From assembly GCF_030013205.1 (NCBI RefSeq), contig NZ_CP122648.1: 64,000 nt of DNA. One strand, given 5' to 3'. Shown piece by piece: positions 56,891 through 61,252 of the stretch. Made by a program: the position numbers and the translations under genes. The notes beneath the pieces were generated by a model that did not search any database, was not told the origin of the DNA, and saw nothing but the letters and a program-made list of their open reading frames with translations. Numbering within the stretch: position 1 is the first letter of the stretch; each line of letters opens with the position of its first letter. This stretch comes from Escherichia coli (GTDB lineage: Bacteria; Pseudomonadota; Gammaproteobacteria; Enterobacterales; Enterobacteriaceae).

Positions 56891-57298
56891 TTATCTTTTA
56901 TTTGTCCGCTGACGGGCTTTTAGTAATTCTTCAAAGAGTTTATTGAAGTTTTTTACTCGAGCTCGCATTTCGGCGAGCTGGGTATCCTGTTCTGATTCTG
57001 GCAGTGCATTAAACAGCTCAAGGAGCTCTAGTTCTTTGGGGGATAAGGCAACTGGCTTCTCAACAGGTGGTGTTGGTTGCTTGTCTTCATCGCCAAATAG
57101 AATCCATGTTGGTGAGCATTGCAATACTTTGCTGAGGGCAAAAAGGTTCTTCCCTGTAGGTTCACTATCACCCCGTTCCCATTGTGATACAGACACATGG
57201 GAGATTTTCAGGGCTTTAGCAAGAGAGCTTTGGGTGTGTTTGAGGTTTTTCCGACGATACCTGATGCGTTCGCCGATAGTTAAATTTTTTGTTTCCAT
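56891..57298 (-). CDS. dicA: XRE-family HTH repressor DicA (cI-like)
   Basis: 135-aa ORF with N-terminal HTH; divergent from dicC. Confidence 0.92.
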   Translation of the reverse strand: METKNLTIGERIRYRRKNLKHTQSSLAKALKISHVSVSQWERGDSEPTGKNLFALSKVLQCSPTWILFGDEDKQPTPPVEKPVALSPKELELLELFNALPESEQDTQLAEMRARVKNFNKLFEELLKARQRTNKR

Positions 57299-57381
57299 AG
57301 TTAGCTAATGCTAAATCGTATTGACTATGTTTTTGTTAACATCTATCTTGTTAGTTATGACTAACAATAAAGGTGTTTTAA
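57299..57381. promoter_or_regulatory. dicA-dicC divergent promoter/operator region
   Basis: 83-bp AT-rich spacer containing dyads TTAGCTAA and TTAGT-TATG-ACTAA between divergent repressor genes. Confidence 0.55.
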
Positions 57382-57612
57382 ATGCTTAAAACTGACGCTC
57401 TTTTGTATTTCGGTTCAAAAACAAAACTTGCACAAGCAGCAGGTATTCGTTTGGCTTCGCTTTATAGCTGGAAAGGGGATTTAGTTCCCGAAGGTCGCGC
57501 GATGCGTCTACAGGAGGCATCTGGCGGGGAGCTTCAGTATGATCCCAAAGTTTATGATGAATATCGTAAGACGAAGCGGGCGGGGCGGTTGAACAATGAA
57601 AATCACTCCTGA
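57382..57612 (+). CDS. dicC: Cro-like regulator DicC
   Basis: 76-aa ORF divergent from dicA; recognised as DicC. Confidence 0.9.
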   Translation: MLKTDALLYFGSKTKLAQAAGIRLASLYSWKGDLVPEGRAMRLQEASGGELQYDPKVYDEYRKTKRAGRLNNENHS

Positions 57613-57919
57613 ACAGGCTCGTGAGGCTCTGGATGCCTGGATATGTCGACCAGGAATGACACAGGAGCAGGCGACGATATTAATCACTGAAGCATTCTGG
57701 GCTTTGAAAGAGCGCCCGAACATCGATGTTCAGCGTGTCACATATGAAGGTGGCGCGATTGATCAGCGAGCGCTTGGCGTTATCTGGTCATCACCTGACG
57801 GAGAAATACGTCGCTACGACAGTCGCCTAAACATAATCTGTCGCGAGTGCCGGAAGAGCGAAGTTATGCAGCGCATACTGGCTTTCTATCAGGGTAATTT
57901 TCAGGACGTGGCGCAGTGA
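57596..57919 (+). CDS. hypothetical prophage protein (YdfX-like position), Cys-containing
   Basis: 107-aa ORF overlapping the dicC 3' end by 17 nt; CxxC at CRECRK; family not assigned. Confidence 0.5.
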   Translation: MKITPEQAREALDAWICRPGMTQEQATILITEAFWALKERPNIDVQRVTYEGGAIDQRALGVIWSSPDGEIRRYDSRLNIICRECRKSEVMQRILAFYQGNFQDVAQ

Positions 57920-58272
57920 GTGCACCGGCAACCATTCTTGATATGTGCTGTGGCAGCCGCATGTTCTGGTTCGATAAGTCTGACGAACGGGCGATATTCA
58001 GCGATATCAGAAAAGAAGGATACACATTACGCAATGGGAGACGCTTGATTATCAGCCCTGACATTATCGCAGATTTTCGTGCATTATCATTTGCAGACGC
58101 ATCTTTTTCGATGGTTGTATTAGACCCTCCGCATCTTGAGAGTGTTGGTGATAACGCCTGGATGGGAAAGAAATATGGACGGCTGAATAAAGATGCCTGG
58201 CGTGATGATTCGCGACAGAGATTTAAAGAAGCCTTTCGGGGGTTGAGGCCGCACGGCGTTCTGATTTTTTAA
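57916..58272 (+). pseudogene. short SAM-methyltransferase-like ORF, probably truncated
   Basis: 118-codon ORF starting at GTG overlapping the upstream stop; motif-I-like ILDMCCGS and DPPH (DPPY-like); ends at a T6 run. Confidence 0.4.
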
Positions 58273-58631
58273 TGGAATGAAACGCAAATACCGGTAAGCC
58301 AGATTCTGGCACTGACAGACAGAAAACCTGTTATCTGTCAACGAACAGGGAAAAAACGATAAAACCCACTGGATTATTTTTATGAAAGAGGCATCCAGTG
58401 AGTAGATTCGTAAGGCTACAGATACGTATATCTGAATAATTAAATTCAGTTCTGTAAATAAAATTTAATCCTTAACCGGATGGATTTCTGCACCCTCAGA
58501 ACATCAGGAGGCCGCCCGAAAGGGCGGTAGTGAAATGCGAATGTTCAAAATTATTATTGAAACGGGAATAGCTGGTGGAGATTTTGAGGATGTATTCGAA
58601 GTGGACGATGACGCAACACCTGAGGAAATTC

Positions 58632-58886
58632 ATGACGGAGCATAAGAAATTTTCTTTAACTACTGCAATTACTCATACCACGAAATAAAAGACGATGAGG
58701 AAGAACAAAGTGGCTGATTTTTGTTCAGCTAAATATAACATCAGTTTTGAAGAGCGGGATGAACTATTAATGGACTATGGTGAGTTACGCGGTGGAAGTG
58801 CTGCTGATGTCGAATCCTAGCGTGATGACTATGAAGCGGGAAAAACTCCGGTCGAAGCATATTGTGATGAGTGGGGCGATGAATGA
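58632..58886 (+). pseudogene. reading frame interrupted by in-frame TAA and TAG, otherwise open
   Basis: Hand translation MTEHKKFSLTTAITHTTK*KTMRKNKVADFCSAKYNISFEERDELLMDYGELRGGSAADVES*RDDYEAGKTPVEAYCDEWGDE*. Confidence 0.3.
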
Positions 58887-59170
58887 GCGAGATTAATTAT
58901 CAGGAAGGGCATGAAACGGCGGGGCAAGCAAAACCAGTGGCATGGCGATATCGCTACGTGAAAAAAGGCGTTACGGACTTTCAGGGGAAGTAGTGGTCTG
59001 GTGACTGGAAATATGTACCGAAAAAAGAGGATTGTAACGACAGGCCGAACTATCAAATTCAGGCCTTATTCACTGCCTCACCAGTCCCAGTTACATCAGA
59101 AGAACTGGTTAAAGCTGTGCACTTTTATGAACAACTAAAACGCGAAAATCCACCAACATCCGGCAACTAG
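58883..59170 (+). pseudogene. reading frame interrupted by one in-frame TAG, start overlaps previous stop (ATGA)
   Basis: Hand translation MSEINYQEGHETAGQAKPVAWRYRYVKKGVTDFQGK*WSGDWKYVPKKEDCNDRPNYQIQALFTASPVPVTSEELVKAVHFYEQLKRENPPTSGN*. Confidence 0.3.
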
Positions 59171-59424
59171 ATTAATGGATTAACTATGTCGGTTAAACGA
59201 CCAGCCAACTGAAAAAGCGGAAACCTGATTACAGGTTGCCAGATAAGGCAATGAGCTACCTGGCGCGGAACGGACTGATAAGTATGGGGAATGTTTTACG
59301 ATGAACCTTTAGACTAAAGAGTTTGTAACGCTATGTAAGTGATTTTTTCTGGTTTAGATATTTATATGTCCGGCCAAATTGAGGTGTGTTTAAATGTAAT
59401 TGCACATTGATTGTAGGAGGAATA

Positions 59425-59604
59425 ATGAAAAACGCATTGCAGTTTTTGTTTGTTGCGTTCTGGTTGTTCGCATCATGTATGCCCATCATCTTCACAGCAA
59501 GGTATATGGAAAAAGTTGATGTTTTGATATTAATATTTGGATATATAAATGCCCTTTTTTTAGGGGTGTTCATGGCGGTCATGTGCATTGAATACTGGCG
59601 GTAA
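59425..59604 (+). CDS. 59-aa hydrophobic (two predicted TM) small protein
   Basis: MKNALQFLFVAFWLFASCMPIIFTARYMEKVDVLILIFGYINALFLGVFMAVMCIEYWR; GGAGG about 6 nt upstream of the ATG. Confidence 0.45.
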   Translation: MKNALQFLFVAFWLFASCMPIIFTARYMEKVDVLILIFGYINALFLGVFMAVMCIEYWR

Positions 59605-59938
59605 ATACAGCGAACTCCATTGGTTTAGTTGGATATTTACTGTGCTGGACAAAAACGGTTTGCGGGGAAATCTTAGTTAAGTAGAATGACTGCGGGTGCT
59701 TGAGGCTATCTGCCTCGGGCATGGACACCAACGGCAGATAGAGAAAAGCCCCAGTTAACATTACGCGTCCTGCAAGACGCTTAACATTAATCTGAGGCCA
59801 ATTTCATGCTAGACACATGTAGGTTAGCCTCTTACGTGCCGAAAGGCACGGAGAAGCAGGCTATTGTTAACACCAAGTTGTAATGTCCCCTTTGAACCAT
59901 TCTAAAATGTCCCCAGACAATTCTCTGGGGGATTTTTC

Positions 59939-61252
59939 ATGATCAAAGAGACTGTTACGATGAGTCATAAGGAACTCCACCGACTTCAGATTATTCAGGA
60001 ACAAGCTGCGGCACGCATTGGCATTTCTATTCGGCAGGTTAAACGTCTGGTGCAACGGTATAGAAATGAAGGGCCTTCTGGTCTGGTTTCCCACCGACGT
60101 GGAAAGCGTCCTAATAATTCCTTTTCTACTGAATTCAGAGCAACAGTAATTTCACTCCTCAAAGGCCGTTACGCTGATTTTGGACCTACGTTTGCGTGCG
60201 AAAAATTGCGCGAGATACACGGTTTATCTTTATCCGTTGAAACTCTCAGAAAGTGGATGATAGAAGAGGGGTTATGGCGTGAACGCCGTCGTAAAATTGC
60301 CCGTATATATCAACGCCGCATGCGACGACCATCTTACGGTGAACTGATCCAGATTGATGGCTCACCTCATGACTGGTTTGAAAATCGAGGCCCCAGATGT
60401 ACACTGATCGTTTTCATTGATGATGCCACCAGTGCGTTGATGGCGTTGCGTTTTGTGCCTGCTGAAACAACCCGGGCTTACATGGAAACCCTCCGGGGTT
60501 ACCTTAATGATCATGGCGTACCGCTCGCTCTCTACTCTGATAGACACAGTATATTCAGGGTAAATAACCCAGAGCGGGAAGGTGAGCTGACCCAGTTCAC
60601 TCGTGCGATAAAGACACTGGGCATCGAGCCAATCCATGCCAACAGCCCGCAGGCAAAAGGGCGGGTAGAGCGCGCCAATCAGACACTACAGGACAGGCTG
60701 GTCAAAGAAATGCGGCTTCAGAATATCAGTGATATTGAAACAGCAAATGCATGGTTGCCGACCTTTATTGAAGCCTATAACAACCGGTTCGCTACGTCGC
60801 CTCGTACTACTGATAATGCTCATCTTGATGTGCACCATTCTGAAGAGGAACTGGGTTATATCTTCAGCCTACAGGCGAAGCGCGTTCTGTCTAAAAATCT
60901 CACTTTCCAGTACAAAAGCAGTGCGTTTCAGGTACGCAGTGAGGGCCGGGGATATCGACTTAGGCATTCGGTTGTTACTGTATGCGAGAACTTTGACGGT
61001 GAAATTAACGTTCTGTATGACGGGAAAGCGCTGGGCTGGGAAAAGTATGTTGATGGCCCGGAGCCTATACCACTGGATGATGAAAAGAGTGTCCATGAAC
61101 GAGTGGATAATGCCCGTATTGATTTACGCTCAAAATACTATGTTAAACCTAAAGCTGACCATCCCTGGCTTACGCGCCGAACGCAAAGTCATCAGCAAGT
61201 TAAGCCCCCGAAGTTACCTAAAAAGAAGCCTGATCCCGATAAAAAAGATTGA
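59939..61252 (+). CDS. DDE transposase with N-terminal HTH and rve-type integrase core (IS481/ISNCY-like), Lys-rich tail
   Basis: 437-aa ORF; HTH at IGISIRQVKRLVQRY; acidic residues in DGSPHDW / FIDDATS / RVERANQ context; family assigned from memory only. Confidence 0.65.
   Translation: MIKETVTMSHKELHRLQIIQEQAAARIGISIRQVKRLVQRYRNEGPSGLVSHRRGKRPNNSFSTEFRATVISLLKGRYADFGPTFACEKLREIHGLSLSVETLRKWMIEEGLWRERRRKIARIYQRRMRRPSYGELIQIDGSPHDWFENRGPRCTLIVFIDDATSALMALRFVPAETTRAYMETLRGYLNDHGVPLALYSDRHSIFRVNNPEREGELTQFTRAIKTLGIEPIHANSPQAKGRVERANQTLQDRLVKEMRLQNISDIETANAWLPTFIEAYNNRFATSPRTTDNAHLDVHHSEEELGYIFSLQAKRVLSKNLTFQYKSSAFQVRSEGRGYRLRHSVVTVCENFDGEINVLYDGKALGWEKYVDGPEPIPLDDEKSVHERVDNARIDLRSKYYVKPKADHPWLTRRTQSHQQVKPPKLPKKKPDPDKKD

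What the first reader, a model, noticed from the sequence alone, without database searches (positions are those of the whole stretch)
58632..59170. Two consecutive reading frames broken only by in-frame stop codons, with no frameshifts
Frame A (58632-58886) stays open for about 84 codons apart from TAA at 58686 and TAG at 58818. Frame B (58883-59170) starts at an ATG overlapping frame A's stop and runs about 95 codons with a single TAG at 58991. The translated segments look protein-like on both sides of each stop. The simplest reading is nonsense-mutated phage genes, but three nonsense hits and no indels is a slightly odd decay pattern; separate tiny ORFs or stop-codon readthrough cannot be excluded from sequence alone.
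Basis: seen in the sequence. Interest (0 to 1): 0.45.

Follow-up and report, generated by a model that had tools for sequence, protein, structure and literature searches.

The report
Nonsense-mutated pseudogenes in Qin-type prophage
Three small accessory genes of a defective Qin-type prophage in E. coli have each been killed by a point mutation to a stop codon; this is ordinary prophage decay that public annotation already flags, with one odd detail: all three stops sit at codon 37.

Summary
The block holds three translationally coupled phage genes, all on the + strand:
- g1, a DUF7167 / phrog_1997 gene, 58535-58717.
- g2, a 58-codon phrog_519 gene, 58710-58886.
- g3, a phrog_660 gene, 58883 to about 59304.

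Each carries one real nonsense mutation relative to intact homologues:
- g2: TGG>TAG at 58818.
- g3: CAG>TAG at 58991.

The reported "TAA at 58686" is not a mutation. It is g1 read out of frame and is invariant in all intact homologues.

"No frameshifts" holds only inside the chosen coordinates. The TAG at 59168 that ends frame B is itself CAG>TAG, and a 4-nt deletion follows at about 59201. The upstream methyltransferase has AAA>TAA at 58270 plus a +1 frameshift.

The locus lies in a Qin-type (dicA/dicC) cryptic prophage. It is 100% identical to pig ETEC strains, where PGAP already marks these genes "internal stop". About 31 lineage-specific substitutions have a near-neutral nonsynonymous:synonymous (N:S) ratio. 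Three stops against 1.4-1.8 expected gives P = 0.16-0.26. There is no tRNA in the window and no sign of constraint after the stops.

Verdict: ordinary pseudogenes. One curiosity remains: all three stops are at codon 37 (chance about 1e-4). I treat this as coincidence.

The parts
58535..58717 (+). g1: DUF7167 / phrog_1997 pseudogene (60 codons). In-frame TAA at 58643-58645 (codon 37), AAA (Lys) in all intact homologues.
   Evidence: PGAP 'DUF7167 family protein, internal stop' in the 100%-identical ETEC1748 locus. Alignments A1 and A2. phrog_1997 E=1.6e-29 over profile positions 1-57 of 57.
58710..58886 (+). g2: 58-codon phrog_519 pseudogene. Start ATG>GTG at 58710. TGG>TAG at 58818-58820 (codon 37). 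Otherwise-invariant residues also changed (G5C, W16R, H17D).
   Evidence: Intact 58-aa homologues WP_000753058.1 and WP_000753053.1 are annotated at the same place. Alignment and translations. Derived changes. phrog_519 E=1.6e-13.
58883..59304 (+). g3: phrog_660 pseudogene. CAG>TAG at 58991-58993 (codon 37). In-frame 90-nt deletion at 59155/59156 between AATCC(A/G)CCAG repeats. CAG>TAG at 59168-59170. 4-nt deletion at 59201/59202.
   Evidence: PGAP 'hypothetical protein; frameshifted; internal stop'. Pairwise alignment with the intact 171-aa DG341-1 gene. phrog_660 E=5.7e-29, and 1.7e-73 for the intact homologue.
58686..58688 (+). Not a mutation: it is g1 codons GAA-ATA-AAA read out of frame.
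   Evidence: Invariant in all 13 sequences of A2, including the intact genes.
57916..58405 (+). Class I SAM-dependent (DNA) methyltransferase pseudogene. AAA>TAA at 58270-58272, then a +1 frameshift near 58348. The repaired 162-aa protein aligns end to end with phage methyltransferases.
   Evidence: tblastn of the repaired protein covers 1-162 at 83% identity in Stx2c phages and 79-81% in Klebsiella phage methyltransferases. DNA alignment. PGAP calls the SC422 copy 'frameshifted; internal stop'.
56891..57612 (.). Immunity region of the Qin-type prophage: dicA (56891-57298, -) and dicC (57382-57612, +). This places g1-g3 in the rightward early operon.
   Evidence: ORFs. RefSeq annotation of the identical locus.
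57596..57919 (+). Deletion scar: the N-terminus of a YdaT-family gene fused to the C-terminus of a DUF977 gene. The replication-protein-O-like gene between them is lost.
   Evidence: PGAP partial CDSs. The same prophage type in ECOR13 (PhiR42_1) keeps the complete genes.
59694..59868 (+). hok/sok remnant downstream of g3. Homology to intact hokD loci stops at the hok ATG, where the IS begins.
   Evidence: Rfam sok RF01794, 104 bits, E=1.4e-23. Alignment A3 with intact hokD loci.
59939..61252 (+). ISNCY / IS1202-like transposase ORF (437 aa) of the insertion element that interrupts the hok locus.
   Evidence: ORF list. PGAP 'ISNCY family transposase' and 'IS1202-like element ISEsa1 family transposase'.

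Best explanation
The region is a run of dead accessory genes in the rightward early operon of a defective Qin-type lambdoid prophage of E. coli. Downstream of dicC lie a methyltransferase gene and three small translationally coupled genes: g1 (DUF7167), g2 and g3. None has a known function.

In one prophage lineage these genes stopped being maintained by selection and accumulated random point mutations. Some of these created stop codons: AAA>TAA twice, TGG>TAG once and CAG>TAG twice. The lineage also gained a start-codon change, small frameshifts and deletions.

At most, 36-residue N-terminal fragments would be made. Nothing is read through.

Shown here: homology, the ancestral sense codons, the near-neutral substitution pattern, and the surrounding decay. 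Inferred: that the cause is relaxed selection in a prophage that has lost its replication gene and is normally repressed by DicA.
For: 1. Context. The locus is 100% identical to the Qin-type prophage of pig ETEC strains, with dicA, dicC, dicB, ydfA-D, relBE, hokD and flxA around it. PGAP already labels g1 'internal stop' and g3 'frameshifted; internal stop'.

2. Ancestral codons. Intact homologues carry sense codons at each stop: AAA, TGG, and CAG/CCG/ATG/CTG. The intact genes are under purifying selection, with pN/pS of 0.05, 0.10 and 0.29.

3. Profiles. PHROG profiles span the stop positions.

4. Substitution pattern. About 31 substitutions are specific to the window lineage: roughly 19-20 nonsynonymous, 9 synonymous and 3 nonsense. 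The random expectation is 72% nonsynonymous, 23% synonymous and 5% nonsense. Expected stops are 1.4-1.8, P(>=3) = 0.16-0.26.

5. Lost features in g2. The start is ATG>GTG, and residues invariant elsewhere are changed (W16R, H17D, G5C).

6. Continued decay within the lineage. Across 19 loci there are 9 nonsynonymous, 5 synonymous and 2 indel events. One copy has TAG drifted to TAA.

7. Decay all around. The methyltransferase has TAA plus a frameshift. The g3 tail has a second TAG plus a 4-nt deletion. The replication gene is deleted. An IS sits in the hok locus.

8. Recoding machinery. No tRNA gene is in the window and no Rfam element overlaps the block.
Against: 1. All three stops lie at exactly codon 37 of their genes. 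Under independent random nonsense mutation this has a probability of about 3e-5 to 2e-4.

2. The same TGG>TAG in g2 arose on three different haplotype backgrounds. This hints at a hotspot or at selection for inactivation rather than pure drift.

3. The stop-bearing allele is common: at least 99% identical in about 500 of 5,426 complete E. coli genomes. The g3 TAG also occurs in prophages whose g1 and g2 are intact.

4. Within-lineage polymorphisms are too few to exclude weak residual constraint on g3, which shows 4 nonsynonymous and 4 synonymous changes.
Confidence: 0.87

Rival explanations
1. Inactivation was selected rather than neutral. One or more of g1-g3 is harmful to a host that carries the prophage permanently, for example a growth-inhibiting early gene. 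Knock-out alleles were therefore favoured and spread.
For: - TGG>TAG at g2 codon 37 arose independently on three haplotype backgrounds: the window lineage, L007 and L033, with intact siblings L084 and L005.
- g3 has many independent disruptions: +2, +1 and -1 frameshifts in the A-run at 58961-58967, and stops at W21, about Y82 and about Y155.
- Stop-bearing alleles are frequent in E. coli.
Against: - The number of stops fits neutral expectation.
- Most sampled prophages keep g1 and g2 intact and conserved.
- W16 and W37 are the only sites in the surveyed part of g2 that can reach a stop by a transition (the third Trp codon, W55, lies inside the search pattern and could not vary), so repeated hits at W37 are not very surprising.
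- The A-run is a plain slippage hotspot.
- There are no toxicity data.
Confidence: 0.08
2. The genes are still functional. The in-frame stops are leaky and serve to lower expression, as proposed for many bacterial genes with in-frame stops (Belinky et al. 2021, PMC7918605).
For: - The sequence downstream of each stop still looks protein-like and is free of frameshifts within g1 and g2.
- The stops are shared by all 19 sampled lineage members.
- The paper's abstract reports that such conserved in-frame stops are widespread.
Against: - The lineage is at least 99% identical throughout, so shared stops reflect recent common descent, not conservation.
- The substitution pattern is near neutral and conserved residues are lost.
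- Within the lineage, g1 has 5 nonsynonymous and 0 synonymous changes, and g3 has frameshifts.
- The stops are a mix of TAA and TAG. One TAG has become TAA, which is normally the stop codon least prone to readthrough in E. coli (from general knowledge, not tested here).
- No tRNA is in the window.
- Four to five stops plus two frameshifts in 1.4 kb would need several mechanisms at once.
Confidence: 0.03
3. The pieces between stops are independent, genuinely short genes (36-45 codons each).
For: ORFs of 36, 41, 36 and 45 codons with start codons exist. The PhiR42_1 GenBank record annotates two of them as CDSs.
Against: - Over 100 homologous loci encode single uninterrupted proteins of 60, 58 and 104-171 aa across these positions.
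- PHROG profiles span the breaks.
- The post-stop segments lack in-frame start codons close to the stops (read directly from the sequence).
Confidence: 0.01
4. The stops are sequencing or assembly errors.
For: None.
Against: Identical stops are present in many independent complete genomes and IMG/VR contigs, from ETEC strains, ECOR13, NCTC9041 and others.
Confidence: 0.005

Closest known systems
RefSeq/PGAP pseudogenes QDW92_RS25675 (DUF7167, 'internal stop') and QDW92_RS12200 ('frameshifted; internal stop') in E. coli ETEC1748, NZ_CP122719.1
   Same: 100% identical DNA over window 57900-59400. Same genes and same stops.
   Different: PGAP does not annotate g2 at all in this lineage. It also calls the truncated 118-aa methyltransferase an intact protein (WP_126750418.1). 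The codon-level history of ancestral codons and event order is worked out only here.
Intact g1-g2-g3 modules of lambdoid prophages and phages, e.g. E. coli DG341-1 (WP_029400499.1, WP_032303751.1, WP_029400500.1), TUM1223 and TW10590
   Same: Same gene order, the same overlapping start/stop junctions (ATGGCTGA, ATGA) and 88-93% DNA identity. The induced phage vB_EcoM-606R7 has the same layout with g1 and g3 intact, but its g2 carries its own TAG at codon 37.
   Different: These carry AAA, TGG and CAG/CCG/ATG/CTG where the window has stops. They have an ATG start for g2 and a full-length g3.
Qin cryptic prophage of E. coli K-12 (dicA-dicC-dicB/dicF immunity region)
   Same: Same immunity genes and neighbours: ydfA-D, dicB, relBE, hokD, flxA, ydfV, ydfW. 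It is a defective prophage kept in the chromosome. Papers on Qin were found and only their abstracts were seen.
   Different: The window's variant keeps a stretch (methyltransferase, g1-g3, hok/sok remnant, IS) between dicC and ydfW. Whether K-12 has this stretch was not tested here.
In-frame stop codons tolerated by readthrough in bacterial genes (Belinky et al. 2021, PMC7918605)
   Same: In-frame stops in otherwise protein-like reading frames, shared among strains.
   Different: That paper's criterion is purifying selection (dN/dS well below 1) maintained with the stop. Here the pattern is near neutral and frameshifts accompany the stops.

Membership tests
Nonsense-mutated pseudogene of a prophage gene | Intact homologues exist that span the stop position with a sense codon | tested here: met
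   g1 has AAA, g2 has TGG, and g3 has CAG/CCG/ATG/CTG in intact homologues.
Nonsense-mutated pseudogene of a prophage gene | Relaxed selective constraint in the stop-bearing lineage | tested here: met
   Lineage-specific changes are about 19-20 nonsynonymous, 9 synonymous and 3 nonsense, against a random expectation of 72:23:5. Intact genes have pN/pS of 0.05-0.29. Invariant residues and the ATG start of g2 are changed. Within-lineage data (9 nonsynonymous, 5 synonymous, 2 indels) agree but are few.
Nonsense-mutated pseudogene of a prophage gene | Other inactivating lesions in the same element | tested here: met
   Methyltransferase with TAA plus a +1 frameshift. g3 tail with TAG plus a 4-nt deletion. 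YdaT/DUF977 deletion fusion. IS at the hok start codon.
DUF7167 / phrog_1997 (g1) | Full-length profile match | tested here: met
   phrog_1997 E=1.6e-29, residues 1-57 on profile positions 1-57 of 57, using the stop-repaired translation. PGAP names it DUF7167. The Pfam model itself was not run.
phrog_519 (g2) and phrog_660 (g3) | Profile match across the stop position | tested here: met
   g2: E=1.6e-13, residues 1-58. g3: E=5.7e-29, residues 2-93. Intact 171-aa homologue: E=1.7e-73. No NCBIfam model matches any of them.
Programmed stop-codon readthrough / recoding | Stop codon conserved across divergent homologues | tested here: not met
   The g1 and g2 stops are confined to one lineage of at least 99% identity. 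All homologues at 88-93% identity have sense codons, apart from two recent singleton g2 mutants.
Programmed stop-codon readthrough / recoding | Purifying selection maintained downstream of the stop | tested here: not met
   Near-neutral N:S ratio, loss of conserved residues, and frameshifts in g3 of sister copies. Power is low for g3.
Programmed stop-codon readthrough / recoding | Suppressor tRNA or a dedicated recoding signal | tested here: not met
   No tRNA in the 64-kb window. No Rfam element in 58000-59500. No shared motif around the three stops. The rest of the host genome could not be examined.
Qin-type (dicA/dicC) lambdoid cryptic prophage | dicA-dicC immunity pair with the Qin neighbourhood | tested here: met
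   dicA 56891-57298 (-) and dicC 57382-57612 (+). The identical annotated locus has dicB, ydfA-D, relBE, hokD and flxA.

The most novel reading that the evidence does not exclude
The placement of all three stops at exactly codon 37 (+108 nt from each start), together with the threefold independent recurrence of the g2 codon-37 amber, is not chance. It would reflect a position-specific process, for example selection for 36-residue N-terminal peptides, or for a fixed translated length in a coupled operon. In that case the 'pseudogenes' would be a deliberately truncated, still-used module.
Probability: 0.03. Interest if true: 0.55.

Novelty: already known. Interest (0 to 1): 0.1.

Why it matters
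It matters little. This is a clean, well-documented case of gene decay in a cryptic prophage, and public annotation already flags two of the three genes as pseudogenes.

The useful by-products are corrections:
- the right three-gene model;
- g2 as an unannotated pseudogene;
- the 118-aa "methyltransferase" as a truncated pseudogene that RefSeq presents as intact.

The analysis also gives a worked null model. Three to five nonsense codons in about 1.4 kb are expected once about 5% lineage-specific divergence accumulates without constraint.

Only the codon-37 coincidence would be of wider interest, and only if a larger survey showed it to be non-random.

Tried and rejected
1. Readthrough or a suppressor. 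ARAGORN found no tRNA in the window. The stops are a mix of TAA and TAG, and the substitution pattern is near neutral. Rejected.

2. A cryptic 174-bp repeat or shared motif to explain the equal spacing of the stops. In-register identity between g1, g2 and g3 is 0.31-0.33, against 0.26-0.27 (SD 0.036) in other registers. That difference is what shared codon phase alone would give. There are no meaningful direct or inverted repeats and no common sequence around the stops. Rejected.

3. Dcm (CCWGG) deamination hotspot as a common cause. It fits only the window-lineage g2 change (TCCTGG>TCCTAG; DG341-1 has GCCTGG). It does not fit the g3 changes, the two other g2 recurrences (GCATGG) or the A>T changes. 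Partial at best.

4. A known RNA element in the block. Rfam finds nothing between 58000 and 59500. The only significant hit is the sok/hok remnant at 59694-59865.

5. NCBIfam naming of g1-g3. No hits.

6. A technical limit. When several annotated-region runs were made in one turn, only some of the fetched loci were copied to the Python sandbox. Those loci were brought in through DNA alignment instead.

Full report
**Observation**

Frame A (58632-58886) has TAA at 58686, TAG at 58818 and a terminal TGA at 58884. Frame B (58883-59170) has TAG at 58991 and a terminal TAG at 59168. The question is what these frames correspond to.

**Context**

The ORFs just upstream are DicA (56891-57298, minus strand) and DicC (57382-57612). 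A megablast of 57900-59400 against complete E. coli genomes gives 100% identity to a group of pig ETEC strains, and matches in 2,690 of 5,426 genomes.

In ETEC1748 the annotated neighbourhood is a Qin-type cryptic prophage. It holds exonuclease, ydfD, dicB, ydfC/B/A, dicA and dicC, then a YdaT fragment, a DUF977 fragment and a SAM-dependent methyltransferase. Next come 'DUF7167 family protein, internal stop' (window 58535-58717) and 'hypothetical protein, frameshifted; internal stop' (window 58883-59304). These are followed by an ISNCY transposase, ydfW, flxA, ydfV, relBE and hokD.

**True gene model**

Prophages and phages with 88-93% identical DNA carry three intact, overlapping genes at this place:
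- a 60-aa DUF7167 protein;
- a 58-aa hypothetical protein;
- a 104-171-aa hypothetical protein.

Alignments A1 and A2 and the in-frame translations give the following.
- g1 = 58535-58717, with AAA>TAA at 58643.
- g2 = 58710-58886, with start ATG>GTG and TGG>TAG at 58818.
- g3 = 58883 onward, with TAG at 58991 where intact genes have CAG, CCG, ATG or CTG.

Its 'TAA at 58686' is invariant in every sequence, intact ones included, so it is not a lesion. The real stop in g1 at 58643 was missed.

PHROG profiles cover the stop positions:
- phrog_1997: E=1.6e-29, profile positions 1-57 of 57.
- phrog_519: E=1.6e-13.
- phrog_660: E=5.7e-29, and 1.7e-73 for the intact 171-aa homologue.

NCBIfam has no model for any of them. 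Their functions are unknown.

**Frameshifts are present, just outside the chosen frames**

Against the 171-aa DG341-1 gene, g3 of the window shows three further lesions:
- an in-frame 90-nt deletion at 59155/59156 between AATCC(A/G)CCAG repeats (the FDAARGOS_1252 copy, annotated as an intact 104-aa gene, shows a gap at the same place in alignment A2);
- a second nonsense change, CAG>TAG, at 59168, which is the 'natural' end of frame B;
- a 4-nt deletion at 59201/59202.

The upstream methyltransferase ORF (57916-58272) ends at an AAA>TAA change and is followed by a +1 frameshift near 58348. The repaired 162-aa protein aligns end to end with phage methyltransferases.

Further decay surrounds the block:
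- A deletion fuses the YdaT and DUF977 fragments and removes the O-like replication gene. That gene is still present in the otherwise 99.9%-identical PhiR42_1 of ECOR13.
- An IS is inserted exactly at the ATG of a hok gene whose sok/hok leader survives at 59694-59868.

**Is the pattern odd?**

Positions where the window differs from every intact homologue number 30, plus the 58819 G>A change. They break down as about 19-20 nonsynonymous, 9 synonymous and 3 nonsense.

For random substitutions in these genes, 4.4-5.7% create stops, 20-26% are synonymous and 70-75% are nonsynonymous. The expected number of stops is therefore 1.4-1.8, and P(>=3) = 0.16-0.26.

Intact homologues show pN/pS of 0.05 (g1), 0.10 (g2) and 0.29 (g3). 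These are real genes elsewhere, and constraint was lost in this lineage. g2 has lost residues that are invariant in over 80 other haplotypes: M1V, G5C, W16R, H17D.

**Wider survey**

An exact-match scan of IMG/VR with the invariant g2/g3 junction gave 127 loci holding the whole block, in 83 haplotypes.

The window lineage accounts for 19 loci including the window. These always carry TAA (g1), the GTG start, TAG (g2) and TAG (g3). Within the lineage there are 9 nonsynonymous and 5 synonymous variants, and 2 indel events in the g3 A-run. One copy has its g2 TAG changed to TAA. This is continued neutral decay, not maintenance.

Other lineages show independent lesions:
- g1: Y46 to stop.
- g3: W21, about Y82 and about Y155 to stop.
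- g3 A-run at 58961-58967: +2, +1 and -1 frameshifts.

The g3 TAG also occurs in prophages with intact g1 and g2, and in the EC958-type allele. It is therefore either older than the other stops or has moved by recombination.

**Readthrough**

No tRNA gene lies in the window and no Rfam element overlaps the block. The stops are a mix of TAA and TAG. The criterion used to argue for functional in-frame stops is dN/dS well below 1 (Belinky et al. 2021, PMC7918605). It is not met here. Sharing of the stops among about 500 genomes reflects near-identity (at least 99%) of the whole segment.

**An unexplained detail**

The three real stops all lie at codon 37:
- 58643 - 58535 = 108;
- 58818 - 58710 = 108;
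- 58991 - 58883 = 108.

With one random nonsense mutation per gene, the probability that all three share a codon index is 3e-5 to 2e-4.

In addition, TGG>TAG at g2 codon 37 arose on three distinct haplotype backgrounds: the window lineage, L007 and L033, with intact siblings L084 and L005.

I found no shared motif, repeat or cryptic homology that could explain this. Independent stops in g1 and g3 of other lineages are scattered. W16 and W37 are the only codons in the surveyed part of g2 that can become stops by a transition. The third Trp codon, W55, lies inside the search pattern and could not vary. This inflates the chance of hits at W37.

I treat the pattern as a post-hoc coincidence. I record it because a full survey of the ~2,100 matching genomes could test it.

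**Verdict**

These are ordinary nonsense-mutated, and partly frameshifted, pseudogenes in a defective Qin-type prophage. Public annotation already flags them. Its gene model, its list of stops and its 'no indels' remark need correction.

Noticed in passing
window 58643, 58818, 58991 (gene starts 58535, 58710, 58883): All three real in-frame stops are at exactly codon 37 (+108 nt) of their genes. Chance is about 3e-5 to 2e-4 under independent random nonsense mutation. No motif, repeat or cryptic homology explains it.
   Followed up: partly
window 58818-58820; L007 (phage vB_EcoM-606R7) and L033 (IMG/VR): The same TGG>TAG at g2 codon 37 occurs on three different flanking haplotypes, with intact siblings L084 and L005. 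This points to recurrent mutation or selection. Only the window-lineage event lies in a Dcm-type context (CCTGG>CCTAG).
   Followed up: partly
window 57916-58405: The SAM-dependent methyltransferase is a pseudogene (AAA>TAA at 58270, +1 frameshift near 58348). RefSeq nevertheless annotates the truncated 118-aa ORF as an intact protein, WP_126750418.1.
   Followed up: yes
window 59694-59868 and 59939-61252: A hok/sok locus (Rfam sok, 104 bits) whose homology to intact hokD loci ends exactly at the hok ATG. An ISNCY/IS1202-like element with a 437-aa transposase ORF begins there. The toxin gene was cut off by IS insertion.
   Followed up: partly
window 58507-58537: A 7-bp GC-rich hairpin with a GAAA tetraloop (58511-58528) sits between a GGAGG Shine-Dalgarno-like motif and the g1 ATG. 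Folding gives -16.9 kcal/mol with z = -2.4. It is near-identical in all homologues, with one G-U-compatible and one disruptive variant. It may bring the SD closer to the start codon. There is no T-run, so it is not an intrinsic terminator.
   Followed up: partly
window 58961-58967 (A-run in g3): The AAAAAA(A) run is a frameshift hotspot across lineages. It shows +2 in EC958/PRO_A-type prophages, +1 in others, and -1 in SC422-like members of the window lineage.
   Followed up: yes
window 57596-57919: A 107-codon in-frame fusion ORF made from the N-terminus of a YdaT-family gene and the C-terminus of a DUF977 gene. The roughly 1.6-kb deletion removed the O-like replication gene, which is still present in PhiR42_1 of ECOR13.
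   Followed up: partly
window 58542: The window carries a K3M change in g1 (AAG>ATG), where 17 of the other 18 sampled lineage members have AAG.
   Followed up: yes
hit H70, PP818812.1: A record named 'Actinobacillus phage vB_Apl-pPE4' carries this E. coli-type g1-g3 block at 89.5% identity. The host label looks odd for a lambdoid coliphage module.
   Followed up: no
window 59386-59604: A 72-codon ORF (GTG start; internal ATG at 59426) encodes a hydrophobic, membrane-like small protein between g3 and the sok/hok remnant. The same sequence is conserved in the EC958 and PRO_A loci. Its function was not examined.
   Followed up: no
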